IMG/VR virus record: IMGVR_UViG_2579778802_000007
Coordinates: 1-31,026 of that record
DNA: 31,026 nt
From: a virus
Taxonomy: Duplodnaviria; Heunggongvirae; Uroviricota; Caudoviricetes
Direction: 5' to 3' (one strand)
Numbering within the stretch: the stretch's first letter is position 1; the number at the start of each line of letters is the position of its first letter. Below, in pieces: positions 1 through 31,026 of this stretch. The notes below the pieces were generated by a model that worked only from the letters and a program-made list of their open reading frames with translations, was not told where the DNA came from and did not search any database. Both the position numbers and the translations under genes were made by a program.

Positions 1-884
1 CCGTTACCATTTTTCTGAATAATTACAGAAAAATTCAACAGGAAAGATATGAAAACGGCGAGATCAAACTCAACACGCTGAAACAGAAAGCAGCTCCTCT
101 CAGGGTATTTGATGAACGTTTTGGCACCAGACCGTTAGATGCCATAACCGTAAAAGATGTGGTATCAGTACTGGAAGAGTACAAGGCCAGAGGACATAAC
201 AGAATGGGACAAATTTTCAGGAAAGTACTGATCGATGTTTTCCGGGAAGCTCAGCAAACGGGCGATGTCCCGCCAGGCTTTAACCCTGCAGAATCGGCAA
301 AAAAACCGCAGGTGCGGATATCAAGACAGCGACTGACTTTTGATGAGTGGATGATGATTTATAACGCAGCGGAAAAGGATGGTTACTTTTTACAGCGCGG
401 TATGCTGCTGGCACTGATGACAGGCCAGCGCCTTTCAGATATTTGCAAAATGCAATTTTCGGATATCCGGGATGGTTATCTTCATGTCGAACAGCAAAAA
501 ACAGGAACCCGGATTGCCATCCCTCTGGCTCTGCGTTGCGATAAATTAAATCTCACCCTGGATGATGTGGTGTCATCCTGCCGCGATTGCGTTCTTAGTC
601 CGTGGCTATTGCACCACCATCACGCGAAAGGGACAGCTAAGCGCGGCGGGATGGTTAAGCCAGCAACATTAACCGTTGCATTTAAAAAAGCCCGGGATTC
701 TGTGGATTACAACTGGCGTGCTAATGGCACCCCTCCCTCTTTCCATGAGCAGAGATCTTTATCAGAGCGATTGTTCAGAGAGCAGGGGGTTGATACCAAA
801 ATTTTGCTAGGCCATTCGAATCAAAAAATGACCGATATTTACAACGACGCACGCGGTAAGGAATGGAAAAAACTGGTCATTTGA
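1..884 (+). CDS. int: Tyrosine recombinase, lambda Int-like integrase (5'-truncated by window edge; stop TGA 882-884)
   Basis: Open frame runs from the window start into ORF 159..884. Translation aligns with the lambda Int catalytic domain as I recall it (TGQR...HxxR...LLGH...Y in 'TDIYNDARGKEWKKL' vs lambda 'SQYRDDRGREWDKI'). Confidence 0.92.
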   Translation, partial: VTIFLNNYRKIQQERYENGEIKLNTLKQKAAPLRVFDERFGTRPLDAITVKDVVSVLEEYKARGHNRMGQIFRKVLIDVFREAQQTGDVPPGFNPAESAKKPQVRISRQRLTFDEWMMIYNAAEKDGYFLQRGMLLALMTGQRLSDICKMQFSDIRDGYLHVEQQKTGTRIAIPLALRCDKLNLTLDDVVSSCRDCVLSPWLLHHHHAKGTAKRGGMVKPATLTVAFKKARDSVDYNWRANGTPPSFHEQRSLSERLFREQGVDTKILLGHSNQKMTDIYNDARGKEWKKLVI

Positions 885-902
885 TGACCAGTTTTGCAGA
901 GG
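873..902 (+). terminator. Hairpin CTGGTCAT-TTG-ATGACCAG spanning the int stop codon, followed by TTTT; possible tI-like terminator or processing site
   Basis: Perfect 8-bp inverted repeat with 3-nt loop at 873-891 followed by a T-run, read directly from the sequence. Confidence 0.3.
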
Positions 903-925
903 GGTTTTGCAGAGGTTTTGCAGAG
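891..925. repeat. Three tandem direct copies of GTTTTGCAGAG (891-901, 904-914, 915-925); candidate arm-type Int binding sites
   Basis: Exact repeats seen in sequence, placed between the int stop and the ompW-like fragment, where lambda has its P' arm sites. A fourth copy (GTTTTGCAGA) lies at 1168-1177. Confidence 0.5.
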
Positions 926-929
926 AAAA

Positions 930-1055
930 TTAAAAACGATATCCTGCGGAGAACATAAACACCCACGGATCCAGTCGTACCGAGTCTTTTACGGTAGTAA
1001 CACCAGATTTGTACTTAGCCGTGGTATCGATATCCATGTACCACACTGACATGTT
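930..1055 (-). other. ompW': Phage-borne 3'-terminal fragment of ompW (41 codons + stop, ...SVRLDPWVFMFSAGYRF*); probable attP substitute 3' end / integration target marker
   Basis: Minus-strand translation NMSVWYMDIDTTAKYKSGVTTVKDSVRLDPWVFMFSAGYRF matches the C-terminus of E. coli OmpW as I recall it. Similarity stops abruptly at 1055, where the next in-frame codon upstream is TAA. Confidence 0.65.
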
Positions 1056-1240
1056 TTAAAAAATGCAATAAGACATTGTATCTGAAAGAAAAAACAGGAT
1101 TTTGAGGCGCTTTTTTATACCGTTTTTCCGTGTTTTTAACTGCCTGATTTTATTGAAATCTTTTTTAGTTTTGCAGAAAGGATTTTTTGCTCGATCGCTT
1201 TAATTTTATACATTCCTGATAACGGAAATTTTTTTGCCCG

Positions 1241-1270
1241 TTGACAGTTTTTGTTCTCCGGGGCTATATT
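1241..1270 (+). promoter_or_regulatory. Sigma70-like promoter candidate (TTGACA - 18 bp - TATATT)
   Basis: Consensus -35 TTGACA at 1241-1246 and -10 TATATT at 1265-1270; sits upstream of the Rha-like gene with a ~240-nt leader. Confidence 0.35.
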
Positions 1271-1332
1271 CCTCACACAACCGCAAAATCGGTTGTCGGG
1301 ATTGGCGTCTCGGATAACATCACAACGCATAG

Positions 1333-29601: not shown

Positions 29602-30082
29602 CGAGTAAATCCGGTAATTTATCCCCCGCCCGCGCACACTGATTTGCCCCCTTCGCAATAAGGGTTTTCAGATGGTCAAGATGGCGCGGTGTTAAATCAG
29701 GAAACTGTCGCTGCATGGATAAAGGGATGGAATCAAGCGTACTGGATAACGCCATTGCCAGCTTGCTGAGGGCAAAAATACAGAACCCGGTGTCAATAAG
29801 TTTTCCTTTTGACACCTCATTTTTTAACTGCTGTGTAACAGCCTGTTCTGCTGTCAGTTCCCATCTGGCAATAAGCAATTTCTCCTCATAGTCGTCTTCG
29901 CTATCGCCATCAGGCACATCGTTTTTACTTCTTCTCAGATACGATATGTAAAAATCGCGCCAGGCATCCAGATCCAGTTGCCCTCGCTTATTCGATATCG
30001 GGGCACCCGGCAATTTCTGCAATCTGCGAAGCTGGCGATCGGTCAGACTTAAATGCCTGGCAACTTCAGTCTGCGTAGCCAC
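29573..30082 (-). CDS. nu1: Terminase small subunit Nu1 (C-terminal half lambda-like, N-terminal DNA-binding half divergent; apparent GTG start)
   Basis: C-terminus '...TGFCIFALSKLAMALSSTLDSIPLSMQRQFPDLTPRHLDHLK' resembles lambda Nu1; the N-terminus does not. Overlaps the A start; lies directly next to cosB. Confidence 0.88.
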   Translation of the reverse strand: MATQTEVARHLSLTDRQLRRLQKLPGAPISNKRGQLDLDAWRDFYISYLRRSKNDVPDGDSEDDYEEKLLIARWELTAEQAVTQQLKNEVSKGKLIDTGFCIFALSKLAMALSSTLDSIPLSMQRQFPDLTPRHLDHLKTLIAKGANQCARAGDKLPDLLDEYIRATTE

Positions 30083-30119
30083 TCCTCACCTCGCAAAAAC
30101 TCTCACCTCACAATCACAA

Positions 30120-30235
30120 CAAAACCGGTCATGTCCGGTTTTAGTGTCTATTTTTTGCGCATGTCCGGTTCATGGAAAGCATGTTTTTATATTTTTCATA
30201 TGGTTAACTTGCAGAGAAACCGGACATGGATCCCG
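30120..30235. promoter_or_regulatory. cosB-like terminase small-subunit binding region with three copies of CATGTCCGGTT (30130-30140 +, 30160-30170 +, 30218-30228 inverted)
   Basis: Repeats read from the sequence, located between cosN and the Nu1 start as lambda's R sites are, but different in sequence from the lambda R-site consensus. Confidence 0.55.
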
Positions 30236-30255
30236 GAAAATTTTCATAAATAGTG

Positions 30256-30285
30256 AAAATCCGCGAGGTCGCCGCCCCGTAACGG
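30256..30285 (-). other. cos: cosN: lambda-type cohesive end site; 12-nt cohesive end GGGCGGCGACCT (minus strand, plus coordinates ~30266-30277)
   Basis: Minus strand reads ACGGGGCGGCGACCTCGCGG...TTTCACTATTTATGAAAATTTTCCGGGA, matching the lambda left end (GGGCGGCGACCTCGCGGGTTTTCGCTATTTATGAAAATTTTCCGG). Confidence 0.85.
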
Positions 30286-30644
30286 CCCGGATCGCCGGAA
30301 AGGACCCGAGAAAATGATAATGATTATCAGTTGCAACAAAATCCAGTTTCTTCCACCATCGCACCGGACGAGCGACCATGAGGGGACAACGCCACGCTCC
30401 GTTAACGCGGTAAACCCCGGTGTGTATCGTTTTTGATTATCCCCGCACACTCGCGCAGAGGAGTCTCCCGGTAGGGCTGCGGTCTCTGTTCATGTGGGAA
30501 TACGGCGACGATACTGCGCAAAGACATGCTTCAGAAATACATAAGTAAACTAAAATATTGTATCTCTGTGGCTAATTACGTAAATTGGTGGCTTGGCCCC
30601 TTTAGCCACCGGCAAATCTTCAGCGGATTATCCTTGGCCGGTTT

Positions 30645-31026
30645 TTATCTGAGGCATTGCTCACGAATGTATAGCTGTGCCCCTTCCAGCTGCTTCTGCA
30701 TTGTCATCAACCGTTCTCTGAGGATGAAATAATCCCGTTCAGCGGCGTCTGCCAGTCTGGGGCCGGTTGCATTATCCACGCCGGAGGTGGTGGGGGCTTC
30801 ACGCACGGAGCCTGGACAGGTGGCGTTGATCCGCAGGCGCTTACGACCAGCGGCAACGTCAGCGCGAAGAGTTTCATTTTCAGCTCTCGCATCGGCTAAT
30901 TCCCTCGAGTATTTTGCATCGAGCGCAGCAACATCGCGCTGGCGCACCTGCATATCAGTAATGGTTGCGTTCGCCAGCTTCAGTTCACTGGCTTTGTTAT
31001 CGCGCTGCGCTTTGTAGGTAATCGCG
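30645..31026 (-). CDS. Rz: Spanin inner membrane subunit Rz (5'-truncated by window edge)
   Basis: '[40 protein letters not shown]...[22 protein letters not shown]' matches lambda Rz; the frame stays open to the window end. Confidence 0.9.
30707..30892 (-). CDS. Rz1: Spanin outer membrane lipoprotein subunit Rz1 (embedded in the +1 frame of Rz)
   Basis: '[22 protein letters not shown]...[27 protein letters not shown]' vs lambda Rz1 'MLKLKMMLCVMMLPLVVVGC...[27 protein letters not shown]'; lipobox Cys present. Confidence 0.88.

What the first reader, a model, noticed from the sequence alone, without database searches (positions are those of the whole stretch)
1..31026. Gene order is virion-like: attP and cos are both intact and internal
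Tail fibre genes run straight into the accessory region, the att region and int, with int transcribed toward att as in lambda, while Rz-cos-Nu1 is also contiguous. In a prophage integrated through this att site, int and the tail fibre genes would lie at opposite ends. The window is therefore from a phage genome or circular/replicative form, a tandem or polylysogenic array, or a prophage integrated by some other route.
Basis: inference. Interest (0 to 1): 0.5.

Follow-up and report, generated by a model that had tools for sequence, protein, structure and literature searches.

The report
Intact phage attachment site inside prophage contig
The window is a complete draft-assembly contig of an E. 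coli isolate in which a lambda-like "PPompW" prophage's tail-fibre end is joined through an intact phage-type attachment site to an integrase gene; this arrangement is already known and most likely marks the seam between two prophages lying side by side in the ompW gene.

Summary
The integrase gene (int, 3-884, +) reads toward a 121-128 bp ompW-derived att segment (928-1055). Accessory genes, tail fibre, tail and head genes, Nu1, an intact lambda-type cos (cosN 30266-30277) and Rz follow. The ompW piece is the phage-borne copy, not a host remnant. It differs from K-12 ompW at 26 of 126 nt and is identical to the copy beside int in published PPompW prophages. The junction is therefore attP-type.

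The window is the whole of contig JJLI01000131.1 (E. coli 1-176-05_S4_C3), so no flanks exist. Its ends fall inside int and Rz.

In single lysogens the same tail-fibre end abuts yciE and int abuts ompW. Only 2 of 5,426 complete genomes carry the int-att-ash junction, and in both two different PPompW-type prophages meet there. The contig starts 91 nt left of the first SNP separating its int allele from most other alleles compared, which suggests a second int copy.

Best reading: the internal junction of a tandem prophage array (about 0.5). Excised or replicating phage DNA, a rearranged prophage and misassembly are not excluded. The family, its att site and tandem PPompWs are published, so the finding is ordinary.

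The parts
3..884 (+). Integrase gene, 3' 293 of 376 codons, cut by the contig start. It is a lambda-type tyrosine recombinase of the PPompW family and is transcribed toward att.
   Evidence: Pfam Phage_integrase. 99.8% nt identity to intE of PPompW records and 100% to E. coli AR_0013. A full-length 376-aa homologue also has the arm-binding domain PF09003.
891..924 (+). Three tandem exact copies of GTTTTGCAGA between the int stop codon and the ompW copy. These are candidate arm-type Int-binding sites of the int-proximal arm.
   Evidence: the only four exact copies in the window all lie within 891-1177, on one strand. Their function is inferred by analogy with the lambda P'1-P'3 sites.
928..1055 (-). 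att segment: a phage-borne, diverged copy of the last 126 nt of ompW (930-1055, including the stop codon). The published 121-bp PPompW att corresponds to 928-1048.
   Evidence: identical to the copy annotated 'duplication due to insertion of PPompW'. It differs from K-12 ompW at 26 of 126 nt and 7 of 41 aa, all between 948 and 1020. PMC8112680 defines the 121-bp att and confirmed it on circularised DNA.
1021..1055 (.). Probable crossover (core) zone: 35 nt identical between the phage copy and host ompW. It contains the short inverted repeats GTGGTA/TACCAC and CATGT/ACATG.
   Evidence: In AF20 the yciE-side junction keeps host-type bases up to 1020 and is joined to the phage distal arm from 1056. 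Exchange therefore occurred between 1021 and 1055. This is an inference.
1056..1250 (+). int-distal att arm, with a fourth GTTTTGCAGA at 1168-1177.
   Evidence: Identical to the prophage end next to yciE in AF20. Motif located.
1241..3477 (+). Accessory region: ash (frameshifted in a T9 run near 1345), rha (1514-2071), remnants of tail-fibre-assembly and DUF4376 genes (2198-2752, - strand), and a SAM-dependent methyltransferase (2809-3477).
   Evidence: RefSeq annotation of collinear AF20 and EC15 loci. Pfam tags. Frameshift shown.
3532..7142 (-). Tail fibre assembly gene (3532-4116) and side tail fibre gene (4116-7142).
   Evidence: The exact 1008-aa protein occurs in many chromosomes, usually a few kb from yciE.
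7294..29601 (-). Lambda-order morphogenesis block.
- lom (7294-7893, TGG>TAG nonsense), J (7961-11434), I, K, L, M.
- H (17168-19579, plus a frameshifted tail at 17005-17235).
- T/G, V, U, Z, FII, FI, E, D, C, B, W, A (27673-29601).
- Two inserted cargo islands on the + strand or of mixed strand: sodC (11570-12097) and ant/arc/clpP-like genes (13708-15924).
   Evidence: Pfam tags; tblastn and alignments; Pfam.
29573..30082 (-). Terminase small subunit gene (Nu1 family, 169 aa, not the lambda allele).
   Evidence: Pfam Phage_Nu1.
30233..30340 (-). cos: cosN 12-nt cohesive-end sequence GGGCGGCGACCT at 30266-30277, with lambda-like cosQ and cosN flanks. The cosB side has diverged.
   Evidence: Alignment to the joined lambda ends; sequence.
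30645..31026 (-). Rz spanin gene, cut by the contig end, with Rz1 embedded at 30707-30892.
   Evidence: Pfam Phage_lysis, E = 1.5e-48. ORFs listed.

Best explanation
The window is the whole of a short-read draft contig from an E. coli isolate. It carries the late half of a lambda-like PPompW-family prophage together with the seam that joins it to a neighbouring prophage of the same integrase family.

**How PPompW phages integrate.** Int recombines the phage att with the 3' end of the host gene ompW. The phage carries its own diverged copy of the last 126 nt of ompW, so the gene is rebuilt after insertion. Exchange occurs in the roughly 35-nt stretch (1021-1055) where the phage and host copies are identical.

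**How the junction seen here would arise.** A second phage of the family integrates into the att copy that flanks a resident one. The array becomes yciE - attL - prophage 1 - [int1 - phage ompW copy - core - distal arm of prophage 2] - prophage 2 - int2 - attR - ompW. The bracketed internal junction consists only of phage arms and is indistinguishable from attP. cos stays internal, as in any prophage.

**Why the contig stops where it does.** It ends where it meets sequence repeated elsewhere in the genome: a second copy of int on the left, and a lambdoid lysis cassette on the right.

**Shown:** the anatomy, the phage origin of the ompW copy, the family assignment, and tandem arrays in the complete genomes that have the same junction.

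**Inferred:** that this strain has such an array.
For: 1. The window equals contig JJLI01000131.1, 31,026 bp, from E. coli 1-176-05_S4_C3. It is a bacterial isolate assembly, not a phage record.
2. Window 1-1055 is 99.8-100% identical to int plus att of PPompW prophages. The published att of 121 bp corresponds to 928-1048.
3. In single lysogens the same distal arm, ash, rha and tail-fibre end abuts yciE through a host-type ompW end, while int abuts a rebuilt ompW (AF20). All ten places shown also have the trp operon, and yciE where it is called, directly upstream of ash.
4. Only 2 of 5,426 complete genomes carry int-att-ash. In both, EC15 and PEC422, int belongs to a different prophage lying immediately beside the ash-bearing one.
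5. The paper on this family reports a 'second PPompW located in tandem' (PMC8112680).
6. The left contig end lies inside int with no IS sequence. The int 5' and 3' parts co-occur about 1:1 across genomes (1,725 vs 1,729 genomes). A repeat boundary inside int therefore implies a second int of the same family.
7. The contig begins exactly 91 nt left of the first SNP (92, then 95) that separates its allele from 11 of the 13 other alleles compared. Those alleles are then identical to it leftwards for about 100 to 500 nt.
8. Host and phage ompW copies share only about 35 identical nt, so a false join through an att repeat is unlikely.
9. No extrachromosomal record in PLSDB carries the attP-type junction.
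Against: - No flanking sequence or read data exist for this strain, so the array itself is not seen.
- The base rate is low: 2 complete genomes have int-att-ash, against roughly 200 with yciE-att-ash.
- A single lysogen (AR_0013) has exactly this int/att allele with a 98.2%-identical head module. The int could therefore be this phage's own, and the junction a true attP.
- Other draft contigs run from tail fibre through att and int into the early region without a break (LGMI01000191.1 and LGME01000255.1). A record named 'Escherichia phage 204576' has late genes, att and int in the same order. Both fit circular molecules as well as arrays.
- If the two int copies were as alike as in EC15 (only 2 differences between window coordinates -1500 and 1055, at 1047 and 1053), a strict de Bruijn contig would be expected to stop near 1055, not at position 1.
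Confidence: 0.5

Rival explanations
1. The strain is a single PPompW lysogen. The junction is the genuine attP of excised, circular or replicating (concatemeric) phage DNA that was abundant enough in the sequenced culture for the assembler to follow the attP path.
For: - The junction is sequence-perfect attP-type.
- AR_0013 shows this int allele and a 98%-identical head module in one prophage.
- PPompW genomes were shown by PCR to excise and circularise (PMC8112680).
- Contigs LGMI01000191.1 and LGME01000255.1 pass through att and the whole of int into the early region.
- The 'Escherichia phage 204576' record has late genes, att and int in the same order.
Against: - With one int copy there is no reason for the contig to stop inside int, and no IS is present there.
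- The chromosomal yciE-core-ash junction would create a branch at the core unless phage DNA greatly outnumbered the chromosome.
- The tape-measure gene H carries a frameshift. It is inherited, because a different contig shares it. The published PPompWs examined were all judged defective and were not packaged.
- No extrachromosomal record in PLSDB has this junction.
Confidence: 0.22
2. The prophage (or its integrase-bearing neighbour) sits in the chromosome by a route other than its own att, which leaves attP intact. Possible routes are insertion into another prophage through a different att, or homologous recombination or inversion between prophages.
For: - In O157:H7 EC4115 a 97%-identical int with the same ompW copy and distal arm up to 1195 lies inside a prophage cluster at mlrA, not at ompW. 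This is the prophage-in-prophage pattern of PMC8112680.
- In EC15 the far end of the int-bearing prophage abuts zinT rather than yciE, so an inter-prophage rearrangement has occurred there.
Against: - The window is collinear with ordinary ompW-integrated prophages from 928 onward.
- It lacks the 21-bp attB-in-PP_1 sequence.
- It shows no foreign junction anywhere across its 31 kb. Any alternative insertion point would have to lie in the unseen early region.
Confidence: 0.15
3. The int-att-ash join is an assembly chimera: attL and attR of a single prophage were wrongly connected through their shared att sequence.
For: Both junctions of a single lysogen contain att. The contig comes from a draft short-read assembly.
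Against: - In genomes with K-12-type ompW, attL and attR share only about 35 identical nt (1021-1055), shorter than usual read or k-mer lengths.
- The look-up tool counts this contig in 3 samples; which samples these are was not determined.
- The identical junction exists in two finished genomes.
Confidence: 0.05
4. The ompW fragment is the host's residual gene end, and the window shows an ordinary prophage-host junction.
For: The fragment is ompW-derived, and RefSeq annotates such pieces as partial OmpW genes.
Against: - It differs from the host-type end at 26 of 126 nt and matches the phage-borne copy exactly.
- Both of its sides are phage DNA: int on one side and the distal arm with ash on the other.
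- No host gene is present in the window.
Confidence: 0.01

Closest known systems
PPompW prophages of E. coli (Nakamura et al. 2021, PLoS Pathog 17:e1009073; PMC8112680)
   Same: - The int is 99.8% identical over the part present.
- The 121-bp att is the same and lies next to int.
- The genome is lambda-like.
- The paper reports the family in 44% of 767 complete genomes and mentions a second PPompW in tandem.
   Different: - The distal end carries ash, rha and a methyltransferase rather than a type III effector locus.
- The 21-bp attB-in-PP_1 sequence is absent.
- The host junctions are not visible in this contig.
Phage lambda attP/Int/Xis and tandem polylysogens (textbook knowledge)
   Same: - The order is tail fibre, b-like accessory region, att, int, with int reading toward att.
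- The Int has an arm-binding domain.
- There are three tandem candidate arm sites next to int and one on the other arm.
- cosN and cosQ are lambda-type.
- In lambda tandem lysogens the inter-prophage junction is an attP.
   Different: - The target is the 3' end of ompW rather than the gal-bio intergenic attB.
- The phage carries about 100 nt of replacement coding sequence.
- The arm-site motif differs from lambda's.
- Nu1 and cosB are of another specificity type.
Phages that integrate into the 3' end of a gene and carry a replacement end, such as phage 21 and e14 in icd (recalled from memory, not tested here)
   Same: A diverged phage-borne copy of the gene's 3' end restores the reading frame after insertion. 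Rebuilt ompW genes are annotated as complete in AF20 and AR_0013.
   Different: A different target gene and a different integrase.
Prophage-in-prophage clusters of O157:H7 at mlrA and ydfJ carrying 'attB-in-PP_3' (PMC8112680)
   Same: int, the ompW copy and the distal arm up to window 1195 are contiguous and internal to a prophage cluster.
   Different: In those clusters the element lies in another prophage at a different chromosomal locus, and the homology ends at 1195. In the window it continues into an ordinary PPompW right end.

Membership tests
PPompW prophage family | Integrase gene more than 90% identical over more than 90% of the O145:H28 PPompW int (criterion given in PMC8112680). | tested here: inconclusive
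   Identity is 99.8% over window 1-1055 against the PPompW_132418 and related records. Only 78% of the gene (293 of 376 codons) is on the contig, so the coverage criterion cannot formally be met.
PPompW prophage family | The 121-bp ompW-derived att sequence lies adjacent to int. | tested here: met
   Window 928-1048 is identical to the annotated 'duplication due to insertion of PPompW'.
PPompW prophage family | Integrated in the ompW gene, between yciE and yciC. | not testable with these tools
   The window is the whole contig and holds no host DNA. Close relatives are at ompW.
Lambda-type attP | A core with inverted core-type sites around a short overlap, in a segment identical to attB. | tested here: inconclusive
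   A 35-nt block identical to host ompW (1021-1055) contains short inverted repeats. The exchange is mapped to this block by AF20's junctions. Cleavage positions are unknown.
Lambda-type attP | Repeated arm-type Int-binding sites on both arms, and an Int with an N-terminal arm-binding domain. | tested here: met
   Four exact copies of GTTTTGCAGA lie at 891, 904, 915 and 1168, and nowhere else in the 31 kb. Full-length homologues carry PF09003. Binding itself was not tested.
Tandem prophage array | An internal junction made of two phage arms (attP-type), with no host sequence. | tested here: met
   a phage-type ompW copy, with int on one side and the prophage distal arm on the other.
Tandem prophage array | Outer attL and attR junctions to host DNA, and a second integrase copy in the same genome. 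| not testable with these tools
Indirect support comes from the contig end inside int, 91 nt left of the allele-specific SNP.
Lambda-type cos packaging unit | cosN 12-nt cohesive-end sequence between the lysis genes and Nu1/A. | tested here: met
   GGGCGGCGACCT at 30266-30277 with conserved flanks. Nu1 and gpA carry the expected Pfam domains.
Free phage genome (virion or circular record) | The source is a phage particle, or a closed circular molecule of phage size. | tested here: not met
   The source is a 31-kb linear contig of a bacterial isolate assembly that ends inside genes. Circular DNA in the culture is not excluded.

The most novel reading that the evidence does not exclude
The contig captures a PPompW-family phage as free circular or replicating DNA in an ordinary culture of a commensal or diarrhoeal E. 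coli isolate. If so, some members of a family described as uniformly defective in STEC and EPEC would be spontaneously active at high level, and in this case despite a frameshift in the tape-measure gene.
Probability: 0.2. Interest if true: 0.25.

Novelty: already known. Interest (0 to 1): 0.12.

Why it matters
It matters little beyond annotation. It shows that an intact internal attP in a draft contig need not mean a free phage. Tandem or nested prophages of one integrase family give the same picture, and these are well documented at ompW.

It is a useful caution for prophage-boundary callers, which may fuse two prophages or mis-set their ends at such junctions. For anyone typing ompW, part of the gene in lysogens is phage-derived (7 of the last 41 residues differ from K-12).

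Tried and rejected
1. **Exact source in complete E. coli genomes.** None was found; the best match was 96% identity over 83% of the first 25 kb of the window.
2. **Flanks through exact-protein look-ups.** gpJ showed that the window is the entire contig. Look-ups with stf, ash, H and the 40-aa ompW ORF returned other strains only. The other contigs of the same assembly could not be reached.
3. **A possible second prophage in the same strain.** Contig JJLQ01000045.1 shares the frameshifted H. It comes from another assembly and lacks this gpJ, so it says nothing about this genome.
4. **A k-mer test at the right contig end.** This was uninformative, because the other Rz allele in the strain is unknown.
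5. **Extrachromosomal precedents in PLSDB.** 'Plasmid' records carrying this int are mislabelled chromosome pieces with int next to ompW.
6. **tRNA target.** None is present.
7. **The 21-bp attB-in-PP_1 sequence.** It is absent.
8. **IS insertion as the cause of the contig ends.** Rejected, because alignments to intact int and Rz run to the last base.
9. **Literature on the strain's sequencing method.** Nothing was found.
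Full report
**What is in the window.**

All morphogenesis genes lie on the - strand in lambda order.

- **Packaging and lysis end:** Rz (30645 to the contig end), with Rz1 embedded in it. A cos region follows, with cosN GGGCGGCGACCT at 30266-30277. Its cosQ and cosN flanks align to the joined ends of lambda, while the cosB side has diverged.
- **Head and tail genes:** Nu1 (29573-30082), A, W, B, C, D, E, FI, FII, Z, U, V, G/T, H, M, L, K, I and J (7961-11434).
- **Tail-fibre end:** lom, the side tail fibre gene (4116-7142) and its assembly gene (3532-4116).
- **Accessory region:** a SAM methyltransferase, tail-fibre remnants, rha and ash (1241-3477).
- **att and int:** a 126-nt ompW 3' copy on the - strand (930-1055). 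After it, on the + strand and reading toward it, come the last 293 codons of a tyrosine integrase (3-884).

No tRNA gene and no host gene is present.

**Where the window comes from.**

The exact 1157-aa gpJ occurs on a single public record, NCBI GCA_000627135.1 contig JJLI01000131.1. Its length is 31,026 bp, and the fetched locus is base-for-base the window. The protein accession names the organism as E. coli 1-176-05_S4_C3.

The window is thus an entire draft contig of a bacterial isolate. The contig ends fall inside int and inside Rz.

**What family it belongs to.**

Window 1-1055 is 99.8% identical to intE plus the annotated att 'duplication' of a set of GenBank records called PPompW. Nakamura et al. 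2021 (PMC8112680) report the following about these lambda-like prophages:

- they are integrated in ompW;
- they were found in 44% of 767 complete E. coli genomes;
- they have a 121-bp att, confirmed by sequencing the attP region of circularised DNA;
- a 'second PPompW located in tandem' occurs in some O157:H7 strains.

The 121 bp correspond to window 928-1048.

**Anatomy of the att region.**

I aligned the window with K-12 attB, both junctions of a single lysogen (AF20), and the junctions of EC15, EC4115 and a PPompW record.

- **The ompW copy is phage-borne.** It differs from K-12 ompW at 26 of 126 nt (7 of 41 residues). All differences lie between 948 and 1020. It is identical to the copy next to int in PPompW_132418.
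- **The single lysogen shows where exchange occurs.** In AF20 the copy next to yciE has the host-type bases up to 1020 and is joined from 1056 to the same distal arm as the window. The copy next to int is phage-type and runs on into host ompW, which RefSeq annotates as a complete gene. Strand exchange therefore occurs within 1021-1055. This 35-nt block is identical in phage and host and contains short inverted repeats.
- **Candidate arm sites flank the segment.** Four exact copies of GTTTTGCAGA, all on one strand, lie at 891, 904 and 915 (next to int) and at 1168 (distal arm). They occur nowhere else in the 31 kb. Full-length homologues of the integrase carry the arm-binding domain. These are plausible arm-type sites, by analogy with lambda.

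The junction in the window is thus int arm, phage ompW copy, core and distal arm: an attP-type site.

**What such a junction means in finished genomes.**

- **Usual state.** The tail-fibre end (window 928 onward) abuts yciE and the trp operon, and int abuts ompW about 45-50 kb away.
- **Same junction as the window.** Only two of 5,426 complete genomes carry int-att-ash in one piece.
  - In EC15 the int belongs to a prophage with HK97-type head genes lying directly beside the ash-bearing prophage. That second prophage has its own copy of the same int next to ompW. The two copies share 5.8 kb at 99.9%. The far end of the first prophage abuts zinT, so a later rearrangement has occurred.
  - In PEC422 the int-bearing prophage is likewise followed by a different one, with lambda-like head genes and myovirus-type tail genes.
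- **A third context, in O157:H7 EC4115.** A 97%-identical int with the same ompW copy and distal arm up to 1195 lies inside a prophage cluster at mlrA. This is the prophage-in-prophage situation of the 2021 paper.

All three chromosomal contexts leave an intact attP-type site internal.

**Weighing the explanations for this strain.**

*For a second int copy, and so for an array or nested arrangement:*

- The contig stops inside int.
- Across complete genomes the int 5' part plus xis, and the int 3' part, occur in practically the same genomes and numbers (1,725 vs 1,729 genomes; 1,841 vs 1,864 places). A repeat boundary inside int can therefore only be another int of this family.
- No IS sequence is at the contig end.
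- Of the 13 other alleles compared, only two (AR_0013 and one Logan contig) share the window's int allele at positions 92 and 95. The other eleven first differ from it there. They are then identical to it leftwards for about 100 to 500 nt.
- The contig starts exactly 91 nt left of position 92. This is what a read- or k-mer-limited extension from the last distinguishing base into a collapsed repeat would give. I regard this as suggestive, not proof.
- A false join through att is unlikely, because attL and attR share only about 35 identical nt.

*Against a tandem array:*

- Arrays with this particular distal arm are rare (2 complete genomes).
- AR_0013, a single lysogen, has exactly this int/att allele with a 98.2%-identical head module. 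The int may therefore be the phage's own.
- Other draft contigs (36 and 42 kb) run from tail fibre through att and the whole of int into cI/cro.
- A 31.5-kb record called 'Escherichia phage 204576' has late genes, att and int in the same order.
- These fit circular or replicating DNA as well as arrays. However, PLSDB holds no extrachromosomal record with this junction.

*On whether the phage is functional:*

- The tape-measure gene H has a +1 frameshift in a G7 run. The same 803-aa product occurs on a different contig of another assembly, so the change is inherited rather than a sequencing error.
- lom has a TGG>TAG change, and ash has an extra T in a T run.
- The published PPompWs that were examined were all judged defective, and their DNA was not found packaged.
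- This argues mildly against a highly active phage.

**Verdict.**

| Explanation | Probability |
|---|---|
| Internal junction of a tandem array of two PPompW-type prophages | about 0.5 |
| Genuine attP of abundant excised or replicating phage DNA | about 0.22 |
| Rearranged prophage, or one integrated by another route | about 0.15 |
| Assembly chimera | about 0.05 |
| Host residual gene end | refuted |

The family, its att, its excision and circularisation, and tandem PPompWs are all published, so the finding is already known and of low interest.

**Not settled.**

Nothing here shows the outer junctions or the read depth in this strain. Mapping the reads to the four possible junctions, or one long-read assembly, would decide the matter.

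Noticed in passing
window 13708-15924: A low-GC (about 0.43) cargo island lies between tail genes K and L. It holds a P22-type antirepressor (13708-14610, - strand), two small Arc/Mnt-like ribbon-helix-helix genes and a ClpP-like protease (15388-15924, + strand). A related contig (JJLQ01000045.1) lacks it. The same island occurs in 52 complete E. coli genomes.
   Followed up: partly
window 11570-12097 (+): A periplasmic Cu/Zn superoxide dismutase gene (sodC) is inserted between tail genes I and J. It is a known kind of prophage cargo gene.
   Followed up: partly
window about 17213-17229, within H (17168-19579, - strand): The tape-measure gene has a +1 frameshift in a run of seven G, which splits off the last 70 or so codons (17005-17235). 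The identical 803-aa product is also encoded on a different prophage contig in another assembly, so the change is inherited. The effect on tail assembly is unknown.
   Followed up: partly
window about 7562, within lom (7294-7893, - strand), and about 1345-1353, within ash: lom carries a TGG>TAG nonsense change. ash has nine T where relatives have eight, which shifts the frame. Both are accessory genes.
   Followed up: partly
window 29573-30233: cosN and cosQ are nearly identical to lambda, but the cosB side and Nu1 (169 aa) are of a different type. The terminase-binding module therefore appears to have been exchanged as a unit.
   Followed up: no
window 2198-2752 (- strand): Pseudogene remnants of a DUF4376 gene and a tail-fibre-assembly gene lie between rha and the methyltransferase. 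They look like the relic of an earlier tail-fibre module.
   Followed up: no
L002 / L017 (E. coli EC15, NZ_CM169486.1): The int-bearing prophage of the EC15 pair ends next to zinT instead of yciE. A large rearrangement between prophages has therefore followed tandem integration.
   Followed up: partly
L004 12700-13100 (E. coli AF20, int-side att): AF20's own prophage carries a second, different allele of the phage-borne ompW end, including an insertion of about 15 nt. Lysogens therefore express OmpW proteins with different phage-derived C-terminal segments.
   Followed up: no
L039 (CP025907.1, 'Escherichia phage 204576', 31.5 kb linear): This unannotated record starts inside the portal gene and ends in the early region. 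It has late genes, att and int in the same order as the window, and it lacks ash and rha (window 1196-2119). It may be an unplaced assembly contig rather than a phage genome.
   Followed up: partly
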